A stretch of 64,000 bases of DNA. Source: an uncultured bacterium. GTDB lineage: Bacteria > Actinomycetota > Acidimicrobiia > Spongiisociales > ZC4RG35. The position numbers were made by a program, and so were the translations under genes. The stretch covers positions 149,288 to 213,287 of the forward strand of contig CAVUYZ010000004.1 in assembly GCA_963745865.1 (NCBI GenBank), read 5' to 3'. The notes beneath the pieces were generated by a model. It did not search any database. It worked only from the letters and a program-made list of their open reading frames with translations, and had not been told where the DNA came from. Below are positions 3,689 through 64,000 of the stretch, piece after piece (position 1 is the stretch's first letter; each line of letters opens with the position of its first letter).

Positions 3689-3698
3689 CGTCTTGCTC

Positions 3699-5690: not shown

Positions 5691-8272
5691 CGGGGGTTCC
5701 TGCTCTCGTGTTCGTATGTCGTGAAAATGCCAACCGGCGCGTCTGTGAAGACCTCCGCCAGGGGAATGCTGCCGTGCCATGGCCGTTCGCGCCAGGTCAG
5801 CCGATCGATCCACTGGTCGGGGGCGTGGCCGGGGAGTGCGATCTCGGTGCCGTGCCAACCATCGGTTGGCCACAGTCCGGGGTGGTCGAGACCGAGCGTC
5901 AGTCGCGACGCCACGACGATCGCCCAGTCGTTCTCATCATATCGGGCGTAGGCGATCACATTGTCCTGCCGATCGCCATGGACCTCCAGCGGCAGGTAGG
6001 CGCCGCTCCGGAACAGACCGGGTCGTTCCCGTCTTAGTCTCAGACAGGCAGACGTGATGGCCAGTTTGATGCGGCCGTCCTGCCAGCTCTCCCCGAGCGA
6101 ACGGAGTACGCCATCCTCGCCGGCCCGGTCGTCGAGTTCCTTCAGCAAGCGGTCGCGGAGGCTCCAGTTGACCGGTCGTCGATTGTCCGGATCGGTCAGC
6201 GAGAGATCCCAGAGCTCCTGGCCCTGGTAGACGTCCGGGACCCCAGGTGCGCAGAGGCGCAGCCCGATCTGGCTGAGCGAGTCGAGGGCACCCGCCCGCC
6301 ACAAGGGCTCTGCGAAGTCCTTCAGCTCGTCAACGAATTCGTCGTCGGTGATCAACCCCATCGCGAACCCGGTCAGCGCCGCCTCGTGCGTCTCGTCGGG
6401 CTCGAGCCATGCGGTGTGCACCTTGGCTTCGCGCGCCGCCTTCACCAAGTAGTCGGCGAGGCGGGCATCGAGGTTCTCCCGTCCATTCAACGGCCACACC
6501 CCGATCAGGGTCTGGTAGATGAGGAGCTCCTCGTTGCGAGTCGGTGACGTCTGTGAGATGCGATGGCGTCGGTTGCGATCGTGCCAGACCTCGACGCGCT
6601 GTGTCCACCGCTCGGCGACCTGGCTGATGGCCGAGATCCGGGTTCGCACATCTTCGGAGCGCTTGGTGTCGTGGGTGGCGGCCGTGGTCATCGTGTCGGG
6701 TCGGCTTCCGGCCACTCGGTCGTTGTGGCTGTGATACGCGGCGATCGGATCGTCGGGCAGTGGGATCGGATGAGCCCCCACCTCGTTCAGCGATACCAGG
6801 AGGTTGAACTGGTAGAAGGCCGTGTCTTCGACTCCCTTCGCCATCACCGCGCCTGTGAACTGTTGGACCCGCTCGACGAAGTCGAGCCGCTCGGCGACCT
6901 CATCGGGCTCGAGGTCGGGACCGTGGTCCAGGAGGAGGACTTCCCTGAGAAATTCGAACACGCGTGGATCTCGCTCGGGGGCGAGGGATGTAGCCGTTTC
7001 GAGGGCCTGATGGACATGGTCCCGATCTTCGGCTGAGACAACGCCTTCTCGCGCGTATGTGCGATACACCGGGAGGGCTGCGAGTACGTCGACCGCCCCG
7101 GAGATCAGTTCGGACGGCAGGATGTCTCTGGCGATTCGATCACGACGCGCCAGCGCCTCGAGGGCCGCGGCGAACCGCGCCGTCTCGGGCCCCAGGCGCT
7201 CGTGGATGATGAAGCGCTGTTGCTCGTGGACGATGGCTTCGAAGTCCAGTGACCCGCCGGTGAAATCGCGATAGTGACCGGCGAGCGTGTCGAGGCCCGC
7301 AGGGTCGACGAACGCCTTGACGGAAGCGTCGAGGTACTCGTACCCGGTGGTCCCGGCGATGGGCCATGCCTCCGGGACCTGCTCGCCCGGCGCGAGGATC
7401 TTCTCGACGACGATGTAGGCATCGTTGCCTGTCGCCGCCCGGAGGGACTCCAAATAGTCGAGCGGATGTCGCAGCCCGTCGATGTGGTCGAGCCGGAGGC
7501 CGTCAACCGTTCCGGCCTTCACCAGTTCGATCACCAGGCGGTGGGTGTCGTCGAACACCACAGGGTCCTCCTGCCGCACACCGATCAGTTCGGCGATCGT
7601 GAAGAACCGTCTGTACCCGAGGCGCTCGCGTGACAACTGCCACCACACCAGGCGGTAGTGCTGGCGGTCGAGCAGACGGTGCAGAACTGTGGGGTCGGCG
7701 TTGATTGCAGCGACGGACTCGTCGATGTCGGCCTCTTCGGCATCCAGGCCGAAATCCGCGAGCGACTGCGGGGAGAGCGGGAACCTCGCATCCCAGTATG
7801 CGGCTCGGAGCGCTCCGTCTGCGTGCTCCAGCGTGATCTCTCCCGCCTGAAGCGCCTCGGCGTACGGTCGACCGAGAAATGGGAGAGGGATGCTGTCGTC
7901 GTCCCAGAACAGGTCGAAATGTCTTGCATGATCTGCGTTCGGCCCGTTTTCGAGGACGTCCATCCACCACGGGTTGTGGCGGCCGATCGCCATGTGGTTC
8001 GGGACGATGTCGAGGATCAGACCCATGCGATGTTCGTGCAGCGTTGTCGCCAGCAGATCGAGGGCGGGGCGCCCGCCCAGCTCGGGGTCGATCTCGCTCG
8101 GGTCGACGACGTCGTACCCGTGCGGGCTACCGGGGCGCGATCTGAGCAGCGGGGAGGCGTACAGATGTGACACGCCGAGACGATCGAGGTAGTCGACCAG
8201 CCCCGAGGCCGTCTCGAGGACGGTCACGGCCGGATCGAATTGCACCCGATAGGTCGAGGCTGGGACCGTCAT
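5687..8272 (-). CDS. treY: malto-oligosyltrehalose synthase TreY
   Basis: Intact 861-862 aa ORF beginning (M)[34 protein letters not shown], a GH13 TreY signature. Start is ATG 8272 (or TTG 8275) and abuts the GH57 stop. Confidence 0.88.
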
Positions 8273-10686: not shown

Positions 10687-12495
10687 GATGTCGTCTCCCG
10701 GTAGACGGCGACGCCCCATGGGCCGAGCTCGATCAGCCCTCCGCCGGCCACGTCTGGGGAGCGTTGCCCGGAGCCGCCAAATCTCGGTTCTTCGGTGTCC
10801 AGCACTCTCGTCCACGATCCGTCGGGCAGCGAGGTTGTGGAGTCTGTTGCTCCGGCGTTCATGACGGTGACCACCCGCTCATCGTCCGCCTGGGACTCGA
10901 TCGTCAAGACGGTCCCCTCCCGGGTGACCCGGTGGGCGGCCGGATCCGGCGCCCCGATCGCCGGACTCGACATCCGGATCCTGATCAGGTCCGAGTACAG
11001 GGTGAGTGTGGCTGCATGCGACGGCTCCCGACGGACGGACCAGTCGAGCATCGATGCGGTGAACGTCGTCGGGTCCGCGGGATCGGGGACATGCTCTCCG
11101 GGGTTGATGAACCCGGCGAACTCCTCGGCGCGTCCAGTTGTGACCGCGCTGGACAGTTCATCGTCGCCGTGGTCGATGAAGTAGAGGAACGGCCGGGTCT
11201 CGGCCCACTCCTCGCCCATGAACAGCATTGGGACCCATGGCGAGAGCAGCGTGATCGACGCAGCGAACCTGAGGCGATCTGGCTCCACGAGAGTGGTCAG
11301 CCGATCTCCGTTGGCCCGGTTCCCGACCTGATCGTGATTTTGTGAGAACACCACGAGCGACGATCTGTCGACATCCGCTGACGATGCCCCATGCCTCCGG
11401 CCCCGGTACTGTGGAGTACCGGCCGTCGGCGATGTATCCATCGGAGAGGCCAGTGGTCAAGTCGAGGACCGCATCGGTGAAATCGGCGTAGTAGCGGGCC
11501 GTTTCACCTGTGAGCGCGACATGGAGGGCATGATGGAAGTCGTCGTTCCATGCTGCGTCGAGCCCGAGCCCGCCGTCCTTTCGGGCGCGGACCAGTCGGG
11601 GGTCGTTCGAGGAGCTCTCTGCGATCACATGAGTCACCCTGCCAAGCGACGATGCCCGCTCGTGGACGGCGTCGGCCAACTCGCCAACGAATGACCGGGC
11701 CGACTGATCGAAGATCGCGTGGACCGCGTCGAGGCGGAGACCATCGATGTGGAAGTCGTCGATCCACATGAGGGCGTTCTCGATGAAGAAGGATCGAACG
11801 TGGTCCGAGCCGCGTCCATCGAGATTGACGGCCTCGCCCCACGGCGTCTTGTATCGGTCGGTGAAGTACGGTCCGAAGTCGCGGAGGTAGTTGCCCTCGG
11901 GTCCGAGATGGTTGTAGACGACGTCGAGATAGACGGCGATCCCGGCAGAGTGACACGCATCGACCAGCCGCATCAACCCGGCCGGACCTCCGTATGAGGA
12001 CTGCGTGGCGAAGAGTCCGACTCCGTCATACCCCCAATTGCGCCGGCCCGGGAACTGCGCCACTGGCATCAGCTCGATGGCGGTGACCCCGAGATCGACG
12101 AGATCGGGGAGATGGCCGGCGACGCCGTCGAAGGTCCCGGCCTCCGAGAACGTCCCGACATGGAGTTCGTAGAGCACCTGCTGGTGGAGCGGTCGGTTGA
12201 CCCACGCACTGTCGGTCCAGTCGAACGAGAGGTCGACGACCTCCGATGCGCCATGGACCCCGTCGGGCTGGGACAACGATCCCGGGTCAGGGCGGCGGAT
12301 GTCTCCGTCGAGCCGCAGCTCGTACCGATCCCCGGGTCGGGCATCGTCGAGGTCGGCCACGAACCATCCATCCTCGGACGGAGCGAGGGCGATCCTGCGA
12401 TCGTCTCGCAGAAGGCACACGTCCACCGAGCTTTGGAATGGAGCCCAGACCCGGGCGCGACTGCGTTCGGGTGACCAGATCAATCCAGGTCTCAT
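10683..12495 (-). CDS. treZ: malto-oligosyltrehalose trehalohydrolase TreZ; frame broken by one extra nt near 11410-11416
   Basis: ORF 11158..12801 carries the GH13 core from [10 protein letters not shown] (...[38 protein letters not shown]). ORF 10683..11441 carries the C-terminus ([13 protein letters not shown]...). Removing one nt gives [12 protein letters not shown]. The ATG at 12495 overlaps the glgB stop (ATGA). Length 1813 = 3n+1. Confidence 0.88.
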
Positions 12496-14396
12496 CGTCG
12501 GAGTCGGAGGGCGACGACGCTGAGCGGTGGCAGCACCAGATCGAGGCTGTGAGGGCGACCCTGCCGTGGCACCCCGAGCGGACCGGTGTCGACCGAGCCG
12601 AGGTTGCCCTGACCGCTTCCTCCGTACACCTTCGAATCGGAGTTGAGGATCTCGTCCCACGTGCCACCCTCCGGCACGCCCACCCGGTACTGATGCCGTG
12701 GAACCGGTGTGGCGTTCACAGCGACCATCACCAGGTCCCCGTCTCTCGATCGTCGGAGGAACGTGAAGACGCTGTTGTCGGAGTCGTTGGCGTCGATCCA
12801 CTCGAACCCGCTCGGGTCACAGTCGGCGTCGTGGAGCGCCGGGACATCGCGATACACCCGGTTGAGGTCGGAAACCAACAGTGAGACGCCCCGATGCTTC
12901 GGGTCGTCGAGGAGATGCCATGCGAGGCTCGACTCGTGGTTCCATTCGGAGTCCTGGGCGATCTCGTCGCCCATGAAGAGCAGCTTCTTGCCCGGCTGCG
13001 TCCACATCACGGCCAGCAGGGTCCGCAGATTGGCGAACCGTTGCCAGTCGTCGCCCGGCATCTTCCCGATCAGCGATCCCTTGCCATGCACGACCTCGTC
13101 ATGGGAGAGGGGCAGCATGAAGTTCTCGTTGAACGCGTAGACCATGCGGAAGGTGAATTCGTGGTGGTGGTAGCGCCGGTGGATCGGCTCGTTCTCGAAG
13201 TAGGCGAGCGTGTCGTGCATCCACCCCATGTCCCACTTCATCCCGAATCCGAGTCCACCAAGAAAGGTCGGTCTGGACACCATCGGCCACGAGGTCGACT
13301 CCTCGGCGATGGTCTGGACATCGGGATACTCGCTGTAGATGGCCTCGTTCAAGTGTTGGAGGAACTGGATCGCTTCGAGGTTCTCGTTCCCCCCGTACTC
13401 GTTGGGGATCCACTCACCGTCGGATCGTGAGTAGTCGAGATACAGCATCGATGCGACCGCATCCACCCTGATCCCGTCGACGTGATAGTGGTCGAGCCAG
13501 AAGATGGCGCTCGAGATCAGGAACGACGGGACCTCGGAGCGGCCGTAGTTGAAGATCGAGGAGTGCCAGTCGGGGTGATACCCCTGCTTGGGGTCCGCGT
13601 GTTCGAACAGGTGTGTGCCGTCGAACTCCGCCAGGCCGTGAGCGTCCGCCGGGAAGTGGGATGGGACCCAGTCGAGGATCACTCCGATGCCTGCTTGGTG
13701 GAGCGTGTCGACGAGGTGCATGAAGTCCTGGGGTGTCCCGTACCGGCTGGTCGGGGCGAAGTACCCGGTGGTCTGATATCCCCACGATCCGTAGAACGGA
13801 TGCTCCATGATCGGAAGCAGCTCGACATGGGTGAATCCATGCTCTGCCGCGTAGGCGGCGAGCTTCGGTGCGATTTCCCGATAGCTGAGGGAGCGGTTCT
13901 CATCCTCGGGAATGCGCATCCACGAGCCGAGATGAACCTCGTAGACGCTGATCGGATCATCCAACCCCTGGCGGTCACGGCGTCCGTTCATCCATTCGCC
14001 GTCGCTCCACTCGTAGTCGAGATCCCAGATCTTTGATGCGGTTGCGGGAGAGGTCTCGTGATGGAACCCGAACGGGTCGGCCTTTTCGAGCCGTGATCCT
14101 GACGTGGTCTCGATCGAGTACTTGTAGGTGTGTCCCTTGTCTGCTCCCTCGACCGTGCCACCCCAGATCCCGGATGAGCCGATCGGAGACAGGATGTCCG
14201 TCGAAGCGTTCCAGCCGTTGAAGTCACCGATGACCGACACCGATCGGGCGTTGGGAGCCCAGACCGCAAAACGGGTCCCGGGACCGTCCGTTGACAGGTG
14301 GGCACCGAGCATCTGATAGGCGCGACGATGGGTGCCCTCGTTCCAAAGATGCAGGTCGTGGTCTGTCGGTCGGGTGACAGCGCTCGTTGCGGTCAT
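12492..14396 (-). CDS. glgB: 1,4-alpha-glucan branching enzyme GlgB
   Basis: Intact 634 aa ORF with [50 protein letters not shown] and [12 protein letters not shown]. Confidence 0.92.
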
Positions 14397-14527
14397 CGGT
14401 GATCCTCGGGCTTGAGAGCAGGGGAGGTAGAGCAGTTACCCGACGCTACGCGGTTGGAAACGATCGCGACGAATGCCGGATCCCCGTTCGGCCAGGTCGG
14501 GTCGGATGTTCGGGTCGGTAGGGTCTG

Positions 14528-15714: not shown

Positions 15715-17637
15715 ATGGCCATGACCACCATCGCCCCCTTCGGTACCTGGACATCCCCGATCAGCGCGGCCGACACCGTCTCCGGCCTCATCGGCTTCTC
15801 GGAGATCGCCGTCGACGGTCCGGATCTCTACTGGATCGAGCTCCGCCCATCGGAAGGAGGGCGGCAGGCTCTGATGAGGAGGGATGCCTCCGGGGCCATC
15901 TCAGAGGTCACCCCGGCACCGTCCCACCCCCGGACACTGGTGCATGAGTACGGTGGCGGGTCGCTGTCTGTCGGTCATGGTCGAGTCGTCTACTCCGAGT
16001 TCTCCGACCAGCGGCTGTATCTGGTCGGCGACCGCGAGGCGACTCCGGTCACTCCCGAGCCGGAGCGTCCCCGATCAGACAGGTATGCCGATGGCCGGGT
16101 CGTCGCGGATGGTCGCCGGTTGCTGTGCGTGCGAGAGCGCCATCCCGACGGGGAGGAGGCGGTCAACGAACTCGTGACGGTGGACTTGGAAACAGCCGAG
16201 GTCCGAGTTCTCGCCACCGGGCGGGACTTCTATGCGGCGCCGCGTCTCTCTCCAGACGGCAGCCGGCTCGCCTGGCTCGAATGGGATCACCCGAACATGC
16301 CGTGGGACGGAACCGAGCTGAAGACCGGCGCATTGGCGCCGGAGGGTCTGAGCGACATCGTGACGGTGGCCGGATCGCAGGACGAGTCGATCTTTCAGCC
16401 CGAGTGGAGTCCCGTCGGTGACCTGGTCTTCATATCCGATCGCACTGATTGGTGGAACCTCTATCGATCTGACGGCGTGTCGATCGACCCGATCCTCGAG
16501 ATGGATGCCGACTTCGGGGAGCCGGCGTGGGTGTTCGGTCGGAGAACATACGACTTCCTGTCCGACGGCCGAATCCTCGCCGGATGGTGGGAGGACGGTA
16601 TCCAGCAATTGGGCATCATCGATCGGGCCGGCGGTCTGAAGCGGCTACCCGATGAGCTGTCCGTCCACGGCGGGATGGTCACGGACGGAGACTCGGTGGC
16701 ATGGTTCGTGGGCGTCGGTTCTGACACTCCCAGCAGCCTGTTCCAGCTCGACGTCGACACCGGCGAGCGGACGACGATTCGCTCGAACCGCCGGCCCGCA
16801 GATCCGGAGTACATCGGAGCGCCGTCGATCGTCACCTTCCCTACCGGTGACGGAGAGGAGGCGCACGGCGTCTTCTATCCGCCCGCCAATCCCGACTTCG
16901 CTGCCCCGGAGGGGGAGCGCCCGCCGCTGATCGTGGAGATCCACGGGGGACCGACGTCGCATGTCTACCCGCGGATGAGTGCCTCCACGTTGTTCTGGAC
17001 GTCGCGTGGATTTGCGGTCGTTGACGTCAACTATCGGGGATCGACCGCCTACGGACGGGCCTTCCGCGACAAGCTGAAGGGCACGTGGGGCGTTGTCGAT
17101 GTCGAGGATTCCATGAGCGCCGCCAGATGGCTCGCCGAGCAGGGACATGTCGACGGCGAACGGCTGGTGATCACGGGCGGCAGCGCAGGCGGGTTCACGA
17201 CCCTCGCCGCTCTCGCGTTTGGTGACGCATTCAGCGCAGGCGCATCGTATTACGGGGTGGCTGATGTCGAGTTGTTGGCGGCGCACACGCACAAATTCGA
17301 GTCTCGCTACCTGGACGGCTTGGTCGGAACCGATCGCCAACTGATCCGCGAGCGATCACCGCTGTATTCGGCGGACAAGATCTCGGTTCCGGTGATCCTG
17401 TTCCAGGGACTCGAGGACAAGGTGGTTCCGCCGGAGCAGGCGGAGGCTATCGCCGCCGCTCTCGACGACAACGGCGTGCCCTATGCGCATGTCACCTACG
17501 AGGGCGAGGACCACGGGTTCCGGAAGGCGGAGAACATCGTGCACAGCCTCGAGTCGGAGTTGTCGTTCTATGGCCGGGTCTTCGGCTTTCGCCCCGCCGG
17601 TGACATCCCCTCCGTCCCCATCGTCGGAGACCTGTGA
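15715..17637 (+). CDS. S9-family serine peptidase (prolyl oligopeptidase / acylaminoacyl-peptidase type)
   Basis: N-terminal beta-propeller region followed by an alpha/beta hydrolase domain with GGSAGGF (the GxSxG nucleophile motif). ATG at 15715. Confidence 0.85.
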   Translation: MAMTTIAPFGTWTSPISAADTVSGLIGFSEIAVDGPDLYWIELRPSEGGRQALMRRDASGAISEVTPAPSHPRTLVHEYGGGSLSVGHGRVVYSEFSDQRLYLVGDREATPVTPEPERPRSDRYADGRVVADGRRLLCVRERHPDGEEAVNELVTVDLETAEVRVLATGRDFYAAPRLSPDGSRLAWLEWDHPNMPWDGTELKTGALAPEGLSDIVTVAGSQDESIFQPEWSPVGDLVFISDRTDWWNLYRSDGVSIDPILEMDADFGEPAWVFGRRTYDFLSDGRILAGWWEDGIQQLGIIDRAGGLKRLPDELSVHGGMVTDGDSVAWFVGVGSDTPSSLFQLDVDTGERTTIRSNRRPADPEYIGAPSIVTFPTGDGEEAHGVFYPPANPDFAAPEGERPPLIVEIHGGPTSHVYPRMSASTLFWTSRGFAVVDVNYRGSTAYGRAFRDKLKGTWGVVDVEDSMSAARWLAEQGHVDGERLVITGGSAGGFTTLAALAFGDAFSAGASYYGVADVELLAAHTHKFESRYLDGLVGTDRQLIRERSPLYSADKISVPVILFQGLEDKVVPPEQAEAIAAALDDNGVPYAHVTYEGEDHGFRKAENIVHSLESELSFYGRVFGFRPAGDIPSVPIVGDL

Positions 17638-27523: not shown

Positions 27524-28541
27524 TCAATCCCAGTCGAGGAATGTGGGAAGCCTTCCTCTCTCTCGAAGGCTTCCCACGATTCCGAGTGGGAAGAACAAGA
27601 GAACCAGGATGAGGATGACCCCGGTCACGACGATGTTCAGTTCTGACGAGCCGAACTGCACAACGGAGAACTCATTGATGATGACCAAGAATATGGCTCC
27701 GACGACCGGGCCGGCAACCGTGCCACGCCCACCGATGATCGCCATCAGAACCATTTGCGCGGCGATCGCAATGGTGAAGAAGATCGACGGTCGAAGGTAG
27801 GTCAAGGAGTACCCCCAAATCGCGCCGGCCACGCCTGGGAAGAAGGCGCTGAGCGTATATGCGATGACCTTGTATTTCCGTGTATCGATACCCAGCACCT
27901 CTGCCTTGATCTCGTCTTGGGCGATTGCCCGGAGACCGAGACCGAGCTTCGAGTGGGCGACCTTCCACGACAGAAGGACGGAGCTAACCGCGGCCGACAA
28001 GCATGGCGAGATAGAACGGAACACGCGCCCACTCGCGCGAGAATTCGGGAAGCGGGAGGCTCAAGCCATTGGATCCGCCGACGTACTCCCAGTTGTCGAA
28101 GATCAACGCGGCCATCAACAGGAGAGCAAGCGTCGCGATGATGAAGGCTGGTCCACGGGTTCGGAGCGTGATCAGGCCGACGCCGATGCCCACCGCCATT
28201 GCGACGAGACCTGCGAGCGGTGCCGAGATGAAGGGCGACCATCCCTGGTACACGAGGAGGGCACCAGCGACGTACCCCCCGATGCCGAAGAAGACGTTGT
28301 TACCGAGCGAGATGTATCCCGCGTAGCCTCCGATGAGGTTCCAACTCGTTGCGAGCGCAACCCACATCATGCTGATCGTCGCCATTTGCATGATGTAGTT
28401 GAATGTTCCGCCGATGAGCGGACGAGCAAACGGAAGCAAGACGAGAAGCAGGAGAAACATCGCTACGACGATGCCCTTGGATCTGCTGCTCTTGCTGGTG
28501 CTCTGGCTGCTGGTGGAATCGGAGGTTCTTGTCTCGCTCAT
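27524..28541 (-). CDS. livM: branched-chain amino acid-type ABC permease LivM; frame broken near 27990-27996
   Basis: ORF 27984..28628 (from MSETRTSD..., ...ATSWNLIGGYAGYISLGN...) and ORF 27524..28024 (...LGLGLRAIAQDEIKAEVLGIDT...IIGGRGTVAGPVVGA) join as ...FYLAMLVG AVSSVLLSWK.... Length 1018 = 3n+1. Confidence 0.85.
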
Positions 28542-29413
28542 CAGACGGCCTCTTTCTCCCCGAATAATCCTTGAGGTCTGATCAGGAGGATGACAAAGAG
28601 AGCGAGATAAAACGTCATCGGTGACCACGTGGATCCGAATGCATCACTCACGAAAGCGGCGAGCACTGCGAGGAAGAGCGAGCCGACGACGGCGCCCTTG
28701 AGGCTCCCGAGGCCGCCGAGGACGATGAGCGAGAGAAGCAGCGAGATCCAGCGCCAGTGCTGCCCGGGGAAGAAGGTGAACAGATAGCTGAGGAGGGAGC
28801 CCGCGGCACCAGCCAACGCCATTCCAATTCCGAAGGAGATCGTGGAAACCCGGTGCACGTTCACGCCGACGGTCTGCGCAGCCGTTCGATTCTGCGTCGT
28901 TGCCTGGATTGCGTAGCCGGTCTTCGTGTACCTGAGAAATGCCCAGAGACAGGCAAGGAGCACCATGCTCGCCAGCGCCCCATACAGCTGACCCTTCGGG
29001 ATGAAGAGGTCGCCGATCAGAAATGCCTCAGTCGAATAGGTCGGGCTGGTCGAGCGAAAGATCCCCGTGAAGGAATACCCCATCAGGCCCTCCAAGACGA
29101 GTGCAATTCCGAACGTCAAGAGCACCGTCATCTCGCTGTATCGATCGCTTCCTTCGAGGAAAGGAAACAGTGAGCGGTATACGACCACGCCAACGAGAAA
29201 CATCGCGGGCATCGTCACCAAGAGTGATACGAACGGGTCTACGCCCAACTCCGTGTATAGGAAGAACGAGGCATAGGCGGCGAGGAGCATGAACGCGCCG
29301 TGGGCGAGATTCACGATGCGCATCACTCCGAAAAGGATCGTCAGGCCGGATGCCATGAGCGCGTACACCCCGCCGAGCACCAGTCCGAGGATGAGGGTTT
29401 GAAGGATGCTCAC
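28541..29413 (-). CDS. livH: branched-chain amino acid-type ABC permease LivH
   Basis: Intact 290 aa ORF: MSILQTLILGLVLGGVYALMASGLTILFGVMRIVNLAHGAF.... Confidence 0.88.
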   Translation of the reverse strand: MSILQTLILGLVLGGVYALMASGLTILFGVMRIVNLAHGAFMLLAAYASFFLYTELGVDPFVSLLVTMPAMFLVGVVVYRSLFPFLEGSDRYSEMTVLLTFGIALVLEGLMGYSFTGIFRSTSPTYSTEAFLIGDLFIPKGQLYGALASMVLLACLWAFLRYTKTGYAIQATTQNRTAAQTVGVNVHRVSTISFGIGMALAGAAGSLLSYLFTFFPGQHWRWISLLLSLIVLGGLGSLKGAVVGSLFLAVLAAFVSDAFGSTWSPMTFYLALFVILLIRPQGLFGEKEAV

Positions 29414-30161
29414 TCGACGACCGGCGCCTTTCCCATGTAGAGCTCCCGGATTCGGGGGTCGCCCAGAATGGCGTCAGCCGTCCCTTCGAAGCGTTTTGAG
29501 CCGAGATCGAGAACGAAGGCCCAATCGGAAACCGCGAGACCGCGCTCGACACTCTGCTCGACCAACAAGACAGTGATCCCGAGATCGTTCAGATTGCTGA
29601 TGACGTCGAAGATCTGGTCGGCAGCTTGAGGCGCAAGACCGAGACTCGGCTCGTCGATCATCATGAGATCGGGTTTGGTCATCAGGGCCCTGCCCATGAG
29701 GAGGATCTGCTGTTGTCCCCCCGATAGCGTTCCGGCCAGTTGCCGCTCCTTCTCGGCGAGGATCGGGAACCTGTCGAAAGTCTCTTCGATGCGGTCCCGC
29801 ACGACAGATCGATCTGGTTCGAGGTACCCCCCCATGACGAGGTTCTGGCGAACGGTCATCTTCGTGAAGAGACTCGGATCCTGCGGAACAAAACAGATTC
29901 CTCTCTTCAGGAGCTGGTCCGGCCGCAATCCGCCGACCGGCTTCGCCGTGAAATCGAACCGCACCCGATCGAGGAGCGAGAATTCCGCCGATCAGCTTGA
30001 GGAGCGTCGACTTGCCCGCACCATTCGGGACCGATGATGCAATAAGTGCGGCCCGCTTCGACATCGAGACTGAGGCCCCGGAGGATGTCCGGACCGTGGC
30101 CGTAACCCGCTGTCACCGATTCCACTTCTAGAAGCACCTCAGACCCTCCCCAGGTATGCAT
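29410..30161 (-). CDS. livF: branched-chain amino acid-type ABC ATPase LivF; frame broken twice (~30026-30030 and ~29963-29967); start ATG 30161 or GTG 30137
   Basis: Three frames join in order: VLLEVESVTAGYGHGPDILRGLSLDVEAGRTYCIIGP, then NGAGKSTLLKLIGGILAPRSG, then VRFDFTAKPVGG...LSGGQQQILLMGRAL...MIDEPSLGLAP. Length 752 = 3n+2. Confidence 0.85.
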
Positions 30162-48339: not shown

Positions 48340-48804
48340 ATGGCACCTGAGTACACATCCCGCGTGACGATCGAGCGGATCCGCGGCCCCATCCGTCGCG
48401 CAACCATCCCGGCACGTGCGGAGCCGATCACCTTCGGCGTGCACTCGGAGGTCGCCGAGCACTACGGGGTCTCACCCGACGAGTTTCCGCCGGACGCCAC
48501 CACTCTCGACTACCTCGTCGCTGCGGCAGGCGGTTGACTGACCGGCACCTTCGGGGGCGCGCTGGAGGCGCGTGGCATCACGGCAAGCGGTGGAACCCTC
48601 ATCGGAGAGGTCACCGGAGAGATCGAAAAGGAAGGATCGGTTCTCATCATCACGAAGATTCATGTCAACTATCGGCTGGCCAACGTCGATCCGGCCGAGC
48701 GGCAAACGGTCGAGCGCGTGCTGGGGTTCCATGCCGACAAGTGCCCGGTCGCCCGATCGATCTCACCTCAGATCGCGATCACCACCTCCGTCGAGTACGT
48801 CTAG
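48340..48804 (+). CDS. OsmC-family peroxiredoxin-like protein with in-frame TGA (48535..48537) at the first conserved Cys position; candidate selenoprotein
   Basis: ATG at 48340 follows gaggag. The reading is MAPEYTSRVTIERI...TLDYLVAAAGG-TGA-LTGTFGGALEARGITASGGTLIGEVTGEIEKEGSVLIITKIHVNYRL...VLGFHADKCPVARSI..VEYV-TAG. The same frame stays open with high GC3 for 89 codons after the TGA and contains the second OsmC motif (KCPV). Confidence 0.6.
48557..48573 (+). other. SECIS-like stem-loop downstream of the OsmC TGA
   Basis: gcgcgc-tggag-gcgcgt forms a 6-bp stem including one G-U pair. The loop starts 25 nt after the TGA and has G at its second position. Confidence 0.3.
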
Positions 48805-60026: not shown

Positions 60027-60879
60027 TCAGGGAGCGGAGGGGCGTTCCACCGGCATCCCCACCATCGATCCCCATTCGGTCCACGAGCCGTCGTAGACAC
60101 GCACATTCTTGCGGTTGGACAGCCGGGTCAGGGCAAACCAACCAAGCGAGGCTCGATGCGACAGCCGGCAATAGGTGACGACGTCGCTGTCGTCGTCTGC
60201 ACCGATCGACTCGAACGCCGACTCGAGCTCCTCGGGTCCGAGGAACGTCCCGTCGGGCGCCAAGAGGCGATCGTGCGGCAGGTGGCGCGCCCCGGGGATG
60301 TGCCCGGCTCGCTCGGCGCCATGGTCATAGGGTGCCGTCGTCGGAGCGACCCGCTCGCCGGCGAACTCCTCAGCCGAGCGGAGGTCGACGATGACGCGCT
60401 TCGCATCTCCCAGCCCGGCCAGCACGTCATCGCGCCCGACCCGGCCATCCTGCACCGGGCGACCTGGATTCGGGCCGGAGCGAGGGCTCCACCGTTGTCG
60501 GGTCGAGCGTCAGGCGCCGTCCCTGCTCGGTCCATGTGGCGTGGCCGCCGTCCAGCACCACCACCTGGTCCTCGAAGCCGGTCAGCGCGAGCACCCAATA
60601 GGCATAGGTGGCGAATTGGATGGGGTCTCCGATCAACACGATCGTCGAGTGGTCATCCGCTCCGAACGCGCCGAGTCTCCGTGACATCTCGTCTGGCTCG
60701 GGAAACTGGCGGTCGGTGTCGTCCCAGCACAGGTCCTTCCAGTAGACGTAGTGGGACCCGGGAACATGCCCTTCGAACCACGCAGCCTTCGATGGCGGGT
60801 AGAAGGAGACGTCGAGAACGACGAGGTCTTCTTCGCCAAGCCGATGCTCGAGCCAGTCGCCGTCGACGAGCGCAGTCAT
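60027..60879 (-). CDS. two-domain rhodanese (thiosulfate/3-mercaptopyruvate sulfurtransferase-like); frame broken near 60465-60490
   Basis: MTALVDGDWLEHRLGEEDLVVLDVS...GHVPGSHYV (inactive domain) joins ...VIVDLRSAEEF..GHIPGARHLP...VVTYCRLSHRAS (active-site Cys loop). The ATG overlaps the OsmC stop (ATGA). Length 853 = 3n+1. Confidence 0.8.
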
Positions 60880-61284: not shown

Positions 61285-62409
61285 TCAGCGATACTTGAGG
61301 CCGGTGCCCGTGTTGAACACAACGACCCGATCGTCCTCGCCGATCCAGCCCGATGCCCGGAGCCGGCGGGTCGCAGCCCACACGGCGCCGCCCTCGGGGC
61401 AGACGTCCACGCCGGAACTCGCCGCCAGGGCAGCCGTCTGCTCCAGCATCTCCTCTTCCGGTATGGCGATGGCCGTTCCTCCGGTCTCCCTGACCGCTCG
61501 GAGGCACAGGAAGCCTCCGATCGGGCCGGGCACCCGCAAGCCGTACGCGGTGGTGTGGGCGTTCTCCCACGTCTCCGTGGTGTCGGCACCCGCCTCGAAT
61601 GCCTTGACGATGGGCGCGCACCCGGCGGTCTGCACCGAGACCAGCCTCGGTCGCTCGGGACCGATCCAGCCCATCTGCTCCATCTCGTTCCACGCCTTCC
61701 ACATCCCCACGAGGCCGGTTCCGCCTCCGGTCGGGTAGACGACGACCTCCGGCATGTTCCCGTCGAACTGCTCGTACAGCTCGTACCCCATCGTCTTCTT
61801 CCCCTCGACCCGGTAGGGCTCCTTCATGGTCGAGACGTCGAAGTCGTTCGGGCCGCGATTGGCGGCGAGCCACTTGCCCGCGTCCGAGATCGTGCCAGGA
61901 ACCAGGTTGACGTCGGCCCCGTAGTGTCGGCACTCGTCGACGAATGCCTTCGGGGTGTCTTCGGGCATCGCCACGACGACCGGCATGCCGGCCGAGGCGC
62001 CATAGGCCGAGAGGGCGCTGGCTGCGTTCCCGGCGGAAGGGGCGACCAGACGCTCAGCTCCGAGCTCACGGGCTGCTGACACGGCCATCGACATCCCTCG
62101 CGCCTTGAAGGATCCGGTTGGATTCCGGGCCTCGTCCTTGATCCATGTCTGATCGTCGACGGAGATGAGGGGCGTCCACCCCTCGACGAGGGTGACCGCG
62201 TCCGCGATGTCCACCGGGAGCACCGCCGAATACCGCCACATCGAGGCGACGGCGCCGTCGATGATGTCGGCCGGGGCTCCGTCGGGGAGGCGAACGTCGG
62301 CGCGGAGCGGTAGACCGCACTCCTCGCACAGGGTGGTCAGTCGCCCGGGATCCATGGTGTGTCCGCAGGCGAAACAGGTGAGTGTGTCTGTGTTCTGTGT
62401 GATGGACAT
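61285..62409 (-). CDS. threonine synthase-family PLP enzyme with N-terminal Cys4 zinc-ribbon
   Basis: MSITQNTDTLTCFACGHTMDPGRLTTLCEECG...DEARNPTGSFKARGMSMAV (the PLP lysine)...YPTGGGTGLVG.... Confidence 0.75.
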   Translation of the reverse strand: MSITQNTDTLTCFACGHTMDPGRLTTLCEECGLPLRADVRLPDGAPADIIDGAVASMWRYSAVLPVDIADAVTLVEGWTPLISVDDQTWIKDEARNPTGSFKARGMSMAVSAARELGAERLVAPSAGNAASALSAYGASAGMPVVVAMPEDTPKAFVDECRHYGADVNLVPGTISDAGKWLAANRGPNDFDVSTMKEPYRVEGKKTMGYELYEQFDGNMPEVVVYPTGGGTGLVGMWKAWNEMEQMGWIGPERPRLVSVQTAGCAPIVKAFEAGADTTETWENAHTTAYGLRVPGPIGGFLCLRAVRETGGTAIAIPEEEMLEQTAALAASSGVDVCPEGGAVWAATRRLRASGWIGEDDRVVVFNTGTGLKYR

Positions 62410-62433
62410 ATCTGTCGAAGATAGTGGGTGATC

Positions 62434-62447
62434 TGCAATCGATTGCC
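62434..62447. promoter_or_regulatory. LacI-type palindromic operator candidate (site 7 of 7)
   Basis: TGCAATCGATTGCC lies in the divergent region between the thrC-like gene (start 62409) and the ADH (start 62492). Confidence 0.55.
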
Positions 62448-62491
62448 GGATCGGACCGGTTCGGCATGTTCTCGGCGGATACTCTCGGTCC

Positions 62492-63532
62492 ATGACGACT
62501 GAGACGATGCGCGCCGTACTGTTGGAAGAGGCCGACGGGCCCCTCGTGGTCCGGGAGGTGGAGAAACCGGTCCCGAAGCCGGGTGAAGCCCTTCTGGCTG
62601 TCGGGGGGTGCGCGGTGGATCGATTCGACATCGCCATCCGCAACGGCGTGCGCGAACGTGCCGCCCGGCTCCCGCACATCCTCGGTCACGAGATCGCCGG
62701 AACGGTCGTCGCCGTTGGCGACGGCGTCGAGAACGTGGAGGTCGGTGAGCGGGTGGCATCGACGCTCTACCTCGTGTGCGGGCGGTGTCGCTGGTGTCTC
62801 AGCGGTCGGGAGACGATCTGCGAGAACTTCGGTGGCCACGTCGGCGTGAACACTCCGGGGGGCTACGCCGAGTACGTATCGCTTCCTGCCCGCAACCTCG
62901 TCCCGATTCCCGATGCGATCGACTTCGCTGCTGCGTCCGTGTTCGCCAATGCCATCGGCACCCCCTATCACGCACTGGTCGTACGCATGGATCTCCGGCC
63001 GGGCGACAGGCTGGTTGTGACTGGGGCGGGCGGCGGCGTTGGGCTGCATGCCGTCCAGCTAGGAGCGATGGTGGGAGCCGATGTCATGGCGGTCGACCTC
63101 GGACAGGACAAACTCGACACGGCCATGACACTCGGCGCATCCGCCGCAATCGACCCCACCGAACAGGATCTCGGAGAGGCGATCCGGGAGTGGACCGGCG
63201 GTGTCGGCGCCGACGGCGTGCTCGAGCTCGTCGGTCCTGCGACCATGCCGACAACACTCGCGGGCCTCGCAAAGGGCGGAAGCATGGTCATCGTCGGGTC
63301 TCACACCGGCGCCGAGTGGTCGATCGATCCAAATGAGATCTATCGCAAGGAATGGGAGATCCTCGGTTCGCGCAACGTCTCGGCCGATGAGTTGCGCATT
63401 GTCGTCGATCTCGTCACCCGCGGGCTGGTCACGCCGGTCATCGCCGAGACCGGCCCGCTCGAGGAGGCCCAGCGGTTTCAGGATCGGGTATCGAGCGGCG
63501 AGGTCGTCGGTCGCGACGTCTTGATCCCCTGA
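62492..63532 (+). CDS. zinc-type (MDR) alcohol dehydrogenase
   Basis: Intact 346 aa ORF with ..GHEIAGTVVAVG..VGERV..CGRCRWCLSGRETIC...VTGAGGGVG.... Confidence 0.85.
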   Translation: MTTETMRAVLLEEADGPLVVREVEKPVPKPGEALLAVGGCAVDRFDIAIRNGVRERAARLPHILGHEIAGTVVAVGDGVENVEVGERVASTLYLVCGRCRWCLSGRETICENFGGHVGVNTPGGYAEYVSLPARNLVPIPDAIDFAAASVFANAIGTPYHALVVRMDLRPGDRLVVTGAGGGVGLHAVQLGAMVGADVMAVDLGQDKLDTAMTLGASAAIDPTEQDLGEAIREWTGGVGADGVLELVGPATMPTTLAGLAKGGSMVIVGSHTGAEWSIDPNEIYRKEWEILGSRNVSADELRIVVDLVTRGLVTPVIAETGPLEEAQRFQDRVSSGEVVGRDVLIP

Positions 63533-63535
63533 ACC

Positions 63536-64000
63536 TCAGGTGGCGAGCCCGACGTCGGTGTCACCGAGAACCTGCTGATGGCCGATGCCGAGCGTCTTGA
63601 TCCACCGCTGCTGTCCGCTGGTCAGCGCAATGAAGAAGCCGAGCTCGACCAGCTCCGGCTCGGTGAAGTGCGTGTGAAGGGCCGACCACAGTTCCTCGTC
63701 GGCAAGTTCAGAGTCCCAGATGATGGCGCTGGTGTAGCGCAGCGCCGTCTTCTCTCGCTCTGAGAATCGGTCCGAGTCCTCGAACTTGAGCAGATCGTCG
63801 TAGTGCTCTTCGGTGAGGCCTTTCCGTCCAGCCTGGACGGAGCGTTGGACGCCTCAATACTCACAGGCAATCGACTTTGAGACATAGACGCGGCAGAGCT
63901 CCTTCACTTCGTGGTCGAGAACGCCATCGAGGAAGGTGGTCCTCCACGCCTGGGTGAACGAGTGGAGGACTGCCGGGACGTGGGCGCGGATTGCCTGGCT
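63536..64000 (-). CDS. carboxymuconolactone decarboxylase (CMD)/AhpD-like protein, 5'-partial, with in-frame TGA (63856..63854) giving a C-x-x-TGA motif; candidate selenoprotein
   Basis: Own translation of the minus strand from 64000 gives SQAIRAHVPAVLHSFTQAWRTTFLDGVLDHEVKELCRVYVSKSIACEY-TGA-GVQRSVQAGRKGLTEEHYDDLLKFEDSDRFSEREKTALRYTSAIIWD...LGLAT-TGA. The frame is continuous (465 = 3n) and GC3 is high on both sides of the TGA. Confidence 0.55.
63824..63840 (-). other. SECIS-like stem-loop downstream of the CMD/AhpD TGA
   Basis: The minus strand reads CCGTCCA-GGC-TGGACGG, a 7-bp perfect stem that starts 13 nt after the TGA. The loop is G-rich. Confidence 0.35.

What the first reader, a model, noticed from the sequence alone, without database searches (positions are those of the whole stretch)
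63536..64000. C-x-x-TGA in a CMD/AhpD-like gene: second candidate selenocysteine
**Seen.** On the minus strand the CMD-family reading frame runs from the window edge to the TGA at 63538..63536. It contains one internal TGA at 63856..63854, in ...VSKSIACEY[TGA]GVQRS....

**Position of the TGA.** CMD/AhpD-family redox proteins carry a C-x-x-C motif at this place (..S..n.C.YC...). The TGA replaces the second Cys, which would give C-E-Y-U.

**Downstream structure.** Thirteen nt downstream is a perfect 7-bp hairpin with a G-rich loop, CCGUCCA-GGC-UGGACGG.

**Why it matters.** Two independent in-frame TGAs, each at a redox-active Cys of a thiol peroxidase-type family and each followed by a hairpin, are hard to explain by chance. 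The His that usually follows the motif (CxxCxxxH) appears to be Arg here, which is a difference worth noting.
Basis: partly seen in the sequence, partly recalled or inferred. Interest (0 to 1): 0.78.

Follow-up and report, generated by a model that had tools for sequence, protein, structure and literature searches.

The report
Selenocysteine codon in AhpD-like redox gene
The in-frame TGA is almost certainly a real selenocysteine codon, with its own recoding hairpin, in a small AhpD/CMD-type redox protein; this kind of selenoprotein (C-x-x-U) has been known since 2005, so the call is correct but ordinary.

Summary
A minus-strand CMD-family frame runs from the window edge to the stop at 63538..63536. 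It has one internal TGA at 63856..63854 and a perfect hairpin 13 nt downstream.

The TGA falls on the second Cys of a C-x-Y-C motif, which is Cys in 108 of the 120 best database homologues. Eleven others show 'W'. Those are JGI code-4 miscalls; the DNA was checked for seven of them and is TGA in each. Among the 80 closest genome loci, 79 carry TGA at this codon.

The hairpin meets every published bacterial SECIS criterion:
- Its six core pairs are intact in all 84 distinct sequences.
- One pair switches cleanly between C-G (73) and U-A (11).
- Wobble positions inside it are frozen while those elsewhere vary.
- Cys-form relatives lack it.

A second gene in the window, OsmC-like with a TGA at 48535..48537, shows the same pattern.

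The Sec machinery is not in the window, so that check stays open.

AhpD-like/CMD C-x-x-U selenoproteins were described in 2005 and are abundant. This is a new member of a known kind. Minor points of note:
- The 'essential' relay His is Arg throughout this subfamily.
- No NCBIfam model reaches its cutoff.
- The SECIS is near-identical across many phyla.

The parts
63536..64000 (-). 3' part (154 of about 190 codons) of an AhpD-like/CMD-family selenoprotein gene. The 5' end, about 32 codons, lies beyond the window edge.
   Evidence: Pfam CMD above its gathering score, and 6192 homologues of which the top 120 are about 190 aa and span the TGA.
63854..63856 (-). In-frame TGA read as selenocysteine. 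It sits at the second position of the redox motif C-E-Y-U.
   Evidence: The column is Cys in 108 of 120 homologues and 'W' in 11; the DNA was checked for 7 of the 11 and is TGA in each. It is TGA in 79 of the 80 closest genome loci.
63863..63865 (-). TGT codon for the first Cys of the C-x-x-U motif. It is the likely resolving partner that forms the selenenylsulfide.
   Evidence: Invariant Cys in alignments A1 and A3. It aligns with Cys48 of PA0269.
63823..63841 (-). Bacterial SECIS hairpin: U-CCGUCCA-GGC-UGGACGG-A. The core stem is 63840..63835 paired with 63829..63824 (6 bp). The A-U pair at 63834/63830 closes the apical loop GGC at 63833..63831.
   Evidence: -12.7 kcal/mol, z = -4.1. The core pairs are 100% paired in 84 distinct sequences, with one C-G/U-A switch, 73 to 11. 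Wobble positions are frozen. Cys forms lack it.
63899..63901 (-). GAG codon for the invariant Glu, 12 residues before the first Cys. It corresponds to Glu36 of PA0269 and Glu118 of MtbAhpD in the proton relay.
   Evidence: Invariant in A1 and A3. Alignment to PA0269. Relay residues are taken from PMC3141380.
63842..63844 (-). CGC codon for the Arg at +4 from Sec. It occupies the place of the relay His (His55 of PA0269, His137 of MtbAhpD).
   Evidence: The Q-R-S triplet is invariant in both Sec and Cys forms. HMMER alignment to 2ijc/2o4d.
63536..63538 (-). The true stop codon (TGA) of the gene. The convergent Zn-ADH gene on the + strand ends 4 nt away, at 63532.
   Evidence: Homologues end at the same place.
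48340..48804 (+). Supporting evidence from the same genome: an OsmC-like gene with its own in-frame TGA at 48535..48537, in the context ..AAAGG[U]LTGTF...
   Evidence: Pfam OsmC, E = 3.5e-12. The column is 'W' in 93 and Cys in 22 of 120 homologues (18 by pattern plus 4 more visibly Cys in the unmatched list). The closest homologue has TGA in its DNA and a conserved hairpin.

Best explanation
The TGA at 63856..63854 is a selenocysteine codon.

**Decoding.** As the mRNA is translated, the 6-8 bp hairpin that starts 13 nt downstream, with its G-G-C apical loop, acts as a bacterial SECIS. It recruits SelB.GTP.Sec-tRNA(Sec) to the ribosome paused on UGA, so Sec is inserted instead of termination. 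Translation then continues for 105 more codons to the real stop at 63538..63536.

**Product.** The product is a protein of about 190 aa, all-helical, from the AhpD-like ('peroxidase-related', COG2128-type) branch of the CMD superfamily. Its active site reads E-x11-C-x-Y-U-x-x-Q-R-S.

**Chemistry.** Sec occupies the position of the exposed, attacking Cys of the AhpD CxxC (Cys133 in M. tuberculosis AhpD). The neighbouring Cys would resolve the intermediate into a selenenylsulfide. The protein most likely works as a selenol/thiol oxidoreductase. It would either reduce an oxidised partner such as a peroxiredoxin, or act on a peroxide or other small electrophile directly.

**What is shown and what is inferred.**
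- Shown: the codon, its Cys/Sec homology, the conserved and co-varying hairpin, the fold class, and the active-site layout.
- Inferred: SelB-dependent decoding, the selenenylsulfide cycle, and the substrate.
For: 1. **Cys/Sec pair.** The column of the TGA is Cys in 108 of the 120 best homologues. It aligns with Cys51 of PA0269 in CAYCVNMH.
2. **Conserved TGA.** The 11 homologues that show 'W' are code-4 gene calls. The DNA was checked for seven of them (loci L001-L009) and is TGA in each. Of the 80 closest genome loci, 79 have TGA at this codon.
3. **Protein-level selection continues past the TGA.** Downstream Gly, Leu and Ser codons are invariant in amino acid but vary at the wobble position, with 1.4-1.8 bits of entropy.
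4. **SECIS criteria** (PMC13188914, Fig 2A) are all met: a 3-nt loop (5 nt if the closing pair opens), a 6-8 bp stem, G at loop positions 1 and 2 in all 88 sequences, 20 nt from UGA to the loop, and -12.7 kcal/mol.
5. **RNA-level selection.** The core pairs are 100% paired in 84 distinct sequences. Pair 24-38 is C-G in 73 and U-A in 11, with none broken. Wobble entropy is 0-0.67 bits in hairpin codons +5 to +10, against 1.2-1.8 bits for the same amino acids elsewhere.
6. **Cys forms lack the hairpin.** This includes the Cys forms nested inside the Sec clade: mean -7.5 against -11.9 kcal/mol, with different sequence.
7. **TGA is the normal stop in this genome**, so the code is not reassigned.
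8. **A second Sec-type gene** (OsmC) lies 15 kb away.
9. **Fold.** The AlphaFold model (pTM 0.77) is closest to the 'peroxidase-related protein' 2prr and to Bmp8, TM 0.72.
10. **Precedent.** C-x-x-U AhpD-like/CMD selenoproteins are published (PMC1088965, PMC2398784, PMC13188914). In MtbAhpD the second Cys is the one that attacks AhpC (PMC6626918).
Against: - No selA, selB, selD or tRNA-Sec is present in the 64-kb window. No tRNA-Sec lies within 10 kb of the gene in the 60 related loci scanned. The decoding machinery of this genome is therefore unverified.
- No Rfam family matches the hairpin. Rfam has no general bacterial SECIS model, so this carries little weight.
- Covariation is thin. Only two pairs show a change on both sides, and one of those in a single sequence, because the element is almost invariant. 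The putative lower stem that includes the UGA is not conserved.
- The relay His that PMC3141380 calls essential is Arg here. The AhpD mechanism therefore cannot be transferred unchanged.
- There is no conserved operon partner such as an ahpC-like gene. The substrate is unknown.
- The structure model is poor exactly around the active site (pLDDT below 50 at residues 78-89). This is probably because the input carried W in place of Sec.
Confidence: 0.92

Rival explanations
1. The TGA is a genuine stop. The gene is a pseudogene, or is split into an N-terminal peptide of about 80 aa and an unrelated downstream ORF. The hairpin is a by-product of the amino-acid sequence S-V-Q-A-G-R.
For: Standard gene callers stop at this TGA. 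The window shows at least one other gene split between frames, a BPD_transp_2 permease at 27527-28643, so some gene decay or assembly error is present. Energy z-scores for the longer 43-nt stretch are only moderate: z = -2.4, and 8 of 200 shuffles fold as well.
Against: The same TGA is present in 79 of 80 related genomes from many phyla. The protein is under purifying selection on both sides of it. A pseudogene would not keep an identical stop and an intact downstream frame at 70-90% amino-acid identity. Wobble positions in the hairpin are frozen, although the encoded amino acids (Val, Gly, Arg, Ser) are four- or six-fold degenerate and vary freely elsewhere in the gene. One stem pair co-varies through a synonymous change on one arm and an Arg/Gln change on the other.
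Confidence: 0.02
2. TGA is reassigned in this organism, to Trp as in code 4 or to Gly as in code 25. The position would then simply be Trp or Gly, as the JGI protein records suggest.
For: Eleven database homologues are recorded with W at this position.
Against: The W records are artefacts. In P0014 the same code-4 translation runs through the true stop into about 50 residues of junk with three more TGAs. In the window, TGA ends most high-GC3 ORFs, and the genome is 64% G+C. The aligned residue in TGA-free homologues is always Cys, never Trp or Gly. The Cys is part of a catalytic CxxC.
Confidence: 0.01
3. Sequencing or assembly error: the real codon in this genome is TGC or TGT (Cys).
For: A single-base difference separates TGA from TGC/TGT. 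The reads are not available.
Against: The window carries the full Sec-form signature and not just the TGA. It has the exact hairpin that is found only in TGA forms and is absent from Cys forms. Its closest relatives (84-90% identity, L010-L025) all have TGA.
Confidence: 0.01
4. It is a true Sec protein but not a peroxidase-related thiol/selenol oxidoreductase of the AhpD type. With Arg in place of the relay His and a Bmp8-like size and fold, it may catalyse a different reaction, such as reductive dehalogenation or reduction of another small electrophile. In that case Sec would play the role it has in deiodinases.
For: Bmp8 debrominase (6ohi/6ohj) is among the best sequence and fold matches: profile E = 5.6e-9 and TM 0.72. 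The His that PMC3141380 calls invariant and essential is Arg in every member. No curated peroxidase-related NCBIfam model reaches its cutoff. No ahpC-type neighbour was found.
Against: The matches to uncharacterised 'peroxidase-related' proteins (2prr) and to PA0269 are as good or better. Glu, Cys, Tyr and Cys/Sec of the relay are all retained with exact spacing. Nothing in the neighbourhood points to halogenated substrates. In the HMMER alignment Bmp8 reads C-M-Y-C-K-S-H-F-S, so it does not share the Q-R-S motif.
Confidence: 0.08

Closest known systems
AhpD-like (COG2128 / 'AhpD-like 1') and CMD-domain ('AhpD-like 2', PF02627) C-x-x-U selenoproteins of Zhang, Fomenko & Gladyshev 2005 and the GOS 2008 survey (PMC1088965, PMC2398784; listed again in PMC13188914)
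   Same: Both are CMD/AhpD superfamily. Sec replaces the second Cys to give C-x-x-U. A stem-loop with G in a small apical loop lies directly downstream. Cys homologues are widespread. The protein is of uncharacterised redox function. JGI names the homologues 'alkylhydroperoxidase family enzyme'.
   Different: This subfamily does not reach the curated cutoff of TIGR01926, the model the 2026 review gives for 'AhpD-like protein': 22-39 bits against 81.8. I could not compare it directly with the 2005/2008 sequences. Those surveys were marine, whereas these carriers are mostly metagenome-assembled genomes labelled Acidimicrobiia, Rokuibacteriota and Binatia.
NCBIfam NF053654 'GroundWater_YciW, YciW-related (seleno)protein'
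   Same: It is the best NCBIfam match, and the match runs end to end (profile 2-176 of 179). Both have the same architecture of about 180 aa, and the family includes Sec forms.
   Different: The score is 44-68 bits against an equivalog cutoff of 310. This is a relative, not a member.
PA0269 (2ijc/2o4d/7xw1), P. aeruginosa AhpD-like protein, and M. tuberculosis AhpD
   Same: The helix-turn-helix catalytic motif has identical spacing: Glu-x11-Cys-x-Tyr-Cys in PA0269 against Glu-x11-Cys-x-Tyr-Sec here (PMC3141380). In MtbAhpD the second Cys is the exposed residue that attacks AhpC (PMC6626918).
   Different: The relay His (His55/His137) is Arg. The protein is about 45 residues longer than PA0269 and has the 2prr/Bmp8-type topology. 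The canonical MtbAhpD structures match only weakly by fold, with E around 1. No ahpC neighbour was found.
2prr / 2pfx / 2oyo / 3c1l 'uncharacterized peroxidase-related proteins' and Bmp8 debrominase (6ohi)
   Same: These are the closest folds: TM 0.72 over about 170-190 residues, at the same length.
   Different: Sequence identity is only 17-20%. All are Cys proteins. Bmp8 has a known dehalogenase function, which nothing here supports.
E. coli fdhF-type bacterial SECIS
   Same: A hairpin inside the coding sequence just 3' of the UGA, with a small G-containing apical loop. The spacing, size and energy fall within the bSECIS consensus model (PMC13188914).
   Different: No sequence similarity. 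The stem is a perfect duplex with no bulged U in the predicted fold (the bulged U of fdhF is recalled from my own knowledge). The lower stem is not conserved.

Membership tests
Bacterial selenoprotein gene (Sec-UGA plus bSECIS) | The in-frame UGA aligns with a conserved Cys in homologues (Cys/Sec pair) | tested here: met
   The column is Cys in 108 of 120 homologues. It aligns with Cys51 of PA0269.
Bacterial selenoprotein gene (Sec-UGA plus bSECIS) | TGA-containing orthologues exist in other organisms, with coding conservation on both sides | tested here: met
   79 of 80 genome loci and 9 metagenome loci carry TGA. Downstream codons show the signature of purifying selection.
Bacterial selenoprotein gene (Sec-UGA plus bSECIS) | bSECIS model: 3-9 nt apical loop and 4-16 bp upper stem (PMC13188914, Fig 2A) | tested here: met
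   Loop GGC (3 nt, or 5 nt where the A-U closing pair is open). The stem is 6 invariantly paired bp plus up to 2 more.
Bacterial selenoprotein gene (Sec-UGA plus bSECIS) | bSECIS model: G in one of the first two apical-loop positions, usually followed by G or U | tested here: met
   Alignment columns 30 and 31 (G, G) are invariant in 88 sequences. The sequence A-G-G-C-U fits the pattern N1-G-[G|U]-N-N2 with N1 and N2 paired.
Bacterial selenoprotein gene (Sec-UGA plus bSECIS) | bSECIS model: 16-37 nt between the UGA and the apical loop | tested here: met
   20 nt (63853..63834).
Bacterial selenoprotein gene (Sec-UGA plus bSECIS) | bSECIS model: minimum free energy of -7.5 kcal/mol or lower | tested here: met
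   -12.7 kcal/mol for the 22-nt hairpin. The range is -9.3 to -15.4 across 88 Sec forms.
Bacterial selenoprotein gene (Sec-UGA plus bSECIS) | The genome encodes selA, selB, selC (tRNA-Sec) and selD | not testable with these tools
   None are in the 64-kb window, and there is no tRNA-Sec in the 60 related loci scanned. Indirect support comes from a second Sec-type gene (OsmC) in the same window.
Bacterial selenoprotein gene (Sec-UGA plus bSECIS) | Selenium is physically incorporated at the UGA position | not testable with these tools
   This needs 75Se labelling or mass spectrometry.
Pfam CMD (PF02627) | Score at or above the gathering threshold (23 bits) | tested here: met
   29.5 bits, E = 7.3e-7, profile positions 1-82 of 84.
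AhpD-like structural family (PA0269 / MtbAhpD proton relay, PMC3141380) | Glu, 12 residues before the first Cys | tested here: met
   Invariant Glu (codon 63901..63899) with spacing identical to Glu36-Cys48 of PA0269.
AhpD-like structural family (PA0269 / MtbAhpD proton relay, PMC3141380) | A Cys-x-x-Cys catalytic pair | tested here: met
   C-E-Y-U, with Sec standing in for the second Cys. The Cys forms of the subfamily read C-x-Y-C.
AhpD-like structural family (PA0269 / MtbAhpD proton relay, PMC3141380) | His four residues after the second Cys, described as invariant and essential | tested here: not met
   Arg in all 120 homologues and in the window, within the invariant Q-R-S triplet. It aligns with His55 of PA0269.
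NCBIfam TIGR01926 'peroxidase-related enzyme' (the model cited for AhpD-like C-x-x-U selenoproteins in PMC13188914) | Score at or above the curated cutoff (81.8 bits) | tested here: not met
   21.8-38.6 bits for the window fragment and four full-length homologues. The match does cover profile positions 3-174 of 178.
NCBIfam NF053654 'YciW-related (seleno)protein' | Score at or above the curated cutoff (310 bits) | tested here: not met
   44-68 bits.
Fold class of 'peroxidase-related' proteins of about 190 aa (2prr, 2pfx, 3c1l, Bmp8) | All-helical fold superposable over most of its length | tested here: met
   AlphaFold model with pTM 0.77. Foldseek gives TM 0.72 to 2prr and 6ohj, probability 1.00.
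gamma-Carboxymuconolactone decarboxylase proper | Absence of the CxxC relay motif (PMC3141380 states that gamma-CMD members lack it) | tested here: not met
   The CxxC/U motif is present, so the protein belongs to the AhpD-like branch and not to the decarboxylases.

The most novel reading that the evidence does not exclude
This could be a distinct branch of the COG2128/AhpD-like superfamily that has not yet been modelled or characterised. Three things would set it apart. First, its active site reads E-x11-C-x-Y-U-x-x-Q-R-S, with the supposedly essential relay His replaced by Arg in both Sec and Cys forms, which would imply chemistry or a substrate different from AhpD, possibly a Bmp8-like reduction of a small electrophile. 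Second, the gene appears to have spread horizontally together with an almost nucleotide-identical SECIS across at least eight phylum-level groups. Third, there has been at least one apparent Sec-to-Cys reversion, which was accompanied by loss of the hairpin.
Probability: 0.15. Interest if true: 0.45.

Novelty: new member of a known kind. Interest (0 to 1): 0.22.

Why it matters
For annotation it matters in a practical way. Standard gene callers either truncate this gene at codon 81 or, as in the JGI records found here, switch to genetic code 4 and write Trp at the catalytic residue. Public protein databases therefore carry wrong sequences for this family and for the OsmC family.

It also shows that the organism behind this window, a relative of Acidimicrobiia MAGs, very probably uses selenocysteine in at least two small antioxidant-type proteins.

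Scientifically it adds little that is new. C-x-x-U AhpD-like proteins are among the most abundant bacterial selenoproteins known. The points a specialist might pursue are the His-to-Arg change in the relay and the near-frozen SECIS across phyla.

Tried and rejected
- **Rfam**, at gathering threshold over the whole window and at E up to 10 around the hairpin. It returned nothing relevant (one chance atpB hit at E = 0.85). Rfam has no general bacterial SECIS family.
- **tRNA-Sec search** with ARAGORN on the window and on 60 related loci. None found. This is uninformative, because sel genes need not be linked to the selenoprotein gene.
- **Pfam annotation of about 50 window ORFs** to look for SelA, SelB or SelD. 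None found.
- **Lower stem** pairing UGAGGC with GCCUCA, which RNAfold predicts in the window. Rejected as a conserved feature, because three of its six pairs are broken in about half of the sequences.
Model R1, built from 88 hairpins, finds only its own site at 82.8 bits. It does not find the OsmC hairpin. A marginal hit at 16604-16659 has no TGA.
- **Conserved operon partner.** ORFs within 5 kb were clustered across about 75 loci. Only lineage-specific neighbours appeared: a divergent 2-hydroxyacid-dehydrogenase-like gene in the closest Acidimicrobiia, and other genes elsewhere.
- **NCBIfam membership with full-length sequences**. No model reaches its cutoff.
- **OsmC hairpin energy.** The z-score is not significant in this GC-rich context. 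Support for OsmC rests on homology and the conserved TGA, not on energy.
- **Promoter/terminator scan of 63300-64000**. It gave only chance terminator-like hits inside coding sequence.
Full report
**1. The observation**

Reading the minus strand from 64000 gives an uninterrupted frame to the TGA at 63538..63536, apart from one TGA at 63856..63854, in ...CRVYVSKSIACEY[TGA]GVQRSVQAGRKGL.... The hairpin CCGTCCA-GGC-TGGACGG lies at 63840..63824, 13 nt after the TGA. Folded alone it gives -12.7 kcal/mol, z = -4.1, and no shuffle out of 200 folds as well. With Cys written at the TGA, the fragment matches Pfam CMD above its gathering score (29.5 bits against 23).

**2. What aligns with the TGA**

A search of the 5.8-billion-protein collection returned 6192 homologues. 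The best 120 are all about 190 aa and span the TGA position. The column is Cys in 108 of them, giving C-x-Y-C, and 'W' in 11.

Every 'W' protein is a JGI gene call on a short metagenome contig. I fetched the DNA for seven of them, and in each the codon is TGA. The gene caller had switched to a TGA=Trp model. In P0014 that translation even runs through the true stop into junk with three further TGAs.

A scan of one genome per GTDB species returned 80 loci at 70-90% amino-acid identity. Of these, 79 carry TGA at this codon and one carries TGC. The record titles are mostly Acidimicrobiia for the closest loci (79-90%). Further out they name Rokuibacteriota, Binatia, Syntrophobacteraceae and 'delta proteobacterium', Burkholderiales, Verrucomicrobiia, Chloroflexota, Armatimonadota, Acidobacteriota and others. 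These are MAG bin labels, so individual assignments may be wrong.

The window itself is syntenic with locus L011: ADH, PALP enzyme, rhodanese and SBP5 lie in the same order.

**3. The hairpin is a selected RNA element**

In an ungapped alignment of 88 Sec-form sequences, the six core pairs of the stem are standard pairs in all 84 distinct sequences. One pair is C-G in 73 and U-A in 11, with none broken. Another tolerates a G-U wobble pair. The two outermost pairs are optional.

The C-G/U-A switch is made by a synonymous TCC>TCT change on the 5' arm and a CGG>CAG (Arg>Gln) change on the 3' arm.

Wobble-position entropy is 0-0.67 bits in hairpin codons +5 to +10. The same amino acids elsewhere in the gene (Val, Gly, Arg, Ser, Leu) show 1.2-1.8 bits. 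Those variable wobbles next to invariant amino acids also show that the region 3' of the TGA is translated.

Nine Cys-form occurrences (about six distinct sequences) have a different and weaker sequence at this place, with mean -7.5 against -11.9 kcal/mol. This includes the Cys forms that nest inside the Sec clade in a neighbour-joining tree. In that tree, all 89 Sec forms plus 12 Cys forms make one clade, and 83 Cys forms lie outside it.

The element meets every criterion of the published bSECIS model (PMC13188914, Fig 2A):
- The loop is 3 nt, or 5 nt where the closing pair is open.
- The stem is 6-8 bp.
- G-G at the first two loop positions is invariant.
- 20 nt separate the UGA from the loop.
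- The energy is below -7.5 kcal/mol.

The lower stem that RNAfold draws through the UGA is not conserved.

**4. Rival readings**

- **Pseudogene or real stop.** This is excluded by the conservation across 79 genomes and by coding selection on both sides of the TGA.
- **Code reassignment.** This is excluded because TGA terminates most high-GC3 ORFs in the 64% G+C window, and because TGA-free homologues have Cys there, never Trp or Gly.
- **Base-call error.** This is very unlikely, because the window carries the whole Sec-form signature, including a hairpin that Cys forms lack.

**5. Sec-decoding capacity**

The window has no tRNA genes. None of about 50 annotated ORFs is SelA, SelB or SelD. None of the 60 related loci scanned has a tRNA-Sec within 10 kb. 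For 64 kb of a multi-megabase genome this says nothing either way.

The best in-genome evidence is the OsmC-like gene at 48340-48804. It has an in-frame TGA at 48535..48537 (Pfam OsmC, E = 3.5e-12). The homologue column is 'W' in 93 and Cys in 22 of 120 (18 by pattern plus 4 visibly Cys among the unmatched). The closest homologue has TGA in its DNA and the same GCGCGC-UGGAR-GCGCGY hairpin.

**6. The protein**

A profile of the family aligns its C-x-Y-C exactly on CAYC of PA0269 (2ijc/2o4d). PA0269's proton relay is Glu36, Cys48, Tyr50, Cys51 and His55 (PMC3141380). The window has Glu-x11-Cys-x-Tyr-Sec with the same spacing, but Arg where the His should be. The Q-R-S triplet is invariant in both Sec and Cys forms. 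PMC3141380 calls that His invariant and essential in the six solved AhpD-like proteins, so this is a real departure at subfamily level.

An AlphaFold model has pTM 0.77 and is weak only around the active site, where the input carried the artefactual W. It is closest to the 190-aa 'uncharacterized peroxidase-related protein' 2prr and to the debrominase Bmp8, both at TM 0.72. It is only distantly like M. tuberculosis AhpD.

NCBIfam gives end-to-end but sub-threshold matches: NF053654 'YciW-related (seleno)protein' at 44-68 bits against 310, and TIGR01926 at 22-39 bits against 81.8.

In MtbAhpD the second Cys (Cys133) is the exposed residue that attacks AhpC (PMC6626918). That is the position Sec occupies here.

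No operon partner is conserved. In the window the gene converges on a Zn-dependent alcohol dehydrogenase gene. In close relatives it diverges from a gene that looks like a 2-hydroxyacid dehydrogenase.

**7. Mechanism**

- Shown: the codon, the Cys/Sec pair, the SECIS, the fold class and the active-site layout.
- Inferred from the established bacterial pathway: SelB.GTP.Sec-tRNA(Sec) binds the hairpin loop and delivers Sec at the UGA.
- Inferred for the chemistry: the selenolate attacks an oxidised partner or a peroxide, the neighbouring Cys resolves the intermediate to a selenenylsulfide, and a cellular reductant recycles it.
- Unknown: the substrate.

**8. Comparison with what is known**

C-x-x-U 'AhpD-like protein' (COG2128; 27 sequences), 'CMD domain-containing protein' (PF02627) and 'OsmC-like protein' were reported as selenoprotein families in the Sargasso Sea study of 2005 (PMC1088965). 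In the GOS survey, AhpD-like 1 was the fourth most abundant family, with 299 sequences (PMC2398784). The 2026 review and BSepDB list several AhpD-type Sec families.

So the kind is known. This gene is a further member, from a subfamily that current curated models do not capture and that has Arg in place of the relay His.

**9. Verdict**

Confidence that this is a genuine Sec codon with a functional SECIS is about 0.92. Novelty is low (new member of a known kind) and interest is about 0.2. The most useful by-product is the demonstration that public protein records for this family and for the OsmC family carry a spurious Trp at the catalytic Sec.

Noticed in passing
window 48340-48804 (+), TGA at 48535..48537: An OsmC-like gene with an in-frame TGA, in the context ..DYLVAAAGG[TGA]LTGTFGG... 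Among the 120 best homologues the column is 'W' in 93 and Cys in 22. The closest homologue (L096) has TGA in its DNA, followed by the same GCGCGC-UGGAR-GCGCGY hairpin. The energy z-score of the window's own stretch is not significant. It looks like a genuine OsmC-like selenoprotein, a family known since 2005.
   Followed up: partly
loci L001-L009, L096 (proteins P0001, P0002, P0006, P0007, P0014, P0015, P0019, P0065, P0067, P0069, P0094, and P0121 onwards): JGI metagenome gene calls on short contigs translate the Sec-TGA as Trp, because a code-4 model was chosen. The stored proteins therefore carry W at the catalytic residue. P0014 additionally reads through the real TGA stop into about 50 residues of junk. 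This is a systematic annotation artefact that affects at least two selenoprotein families.
   Followed up: yes
window 27527-28643 (-), and 29413-29991 (-): One BPD_transp_2 permease profile is split between two overlapping ORFs in different frames: 27527-28060 matches profile positions 135-269, and 27987-28643 matches positions 2-108. A neighbouring ABC ATPase ORF starts only at profile position 54. These look like frameshifts, from either assembly indels or gene decay.
   Followed up: no
L044 8156 and 10937; L025 10145 and 14164; L036 10145 and 18896 (-): Some genomes carry two copies of the gene close together. L044 has two Sec forms 2.8 kb apart. L025 and L036 each have a Sec form and a Cys paralogue within 10 kb.
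   Followed up: no
proteins P0003, P0008, P0010, P0016, P0018, P0020, P0022, P0026, P0060, P0062, P0075; locus L094: Twelve Cys forms, mostly the C-S-Y-C-G...S-V-K-G-R-Q-Q group, nest inside the otherwise all-Sec clade in a neighbour-joining tree. They have lost the hairpin: TCGGTCAAAGGCCGCCAG in L094 against TCTGTCCAGGCTGGACAG in its Sec sister L005. This may be a Sec-to-Cys reversion. The tree is crude (NJ, 140 residues).
   Followed up: partly
L010-L089 (alignment A2, columns 22-40): The SECIS nucleotides are nearly identical in MAGs labelled as at least eight phylum-level groups, and the proteins are 70-90% identical. This suggests horizontal spread of the gene together with its SECIS. MAG bin contamination cannot be excluded.
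   Followed up: no
window 418-14435 (-): A cluster of alpha-glucan genes: a TreS-maltokinase fusion, a GlgE C-terminal domain, alpha-amylase-family ORFs, GH57/DUF3536 and GlgB. This fits a GlgE-type glucan pathway, which as far as I recall is typical of Actinomycetota. Several ORFs match only parts of their profiles.
   Followed up: no
window 60030-60509 (-) and 61288-62685 (-): A rhodanese-domain protein and a PLP-dependent (PALP) enzyme lie 1-3.5 kb from the CMD gene, with the Zn-ADH gene between them. L011 and L036 have the same pair. These are sulfur-transfer-type genes near a selenoprotein gene. No in-frame TGA was seen in them.
   Followed up: no
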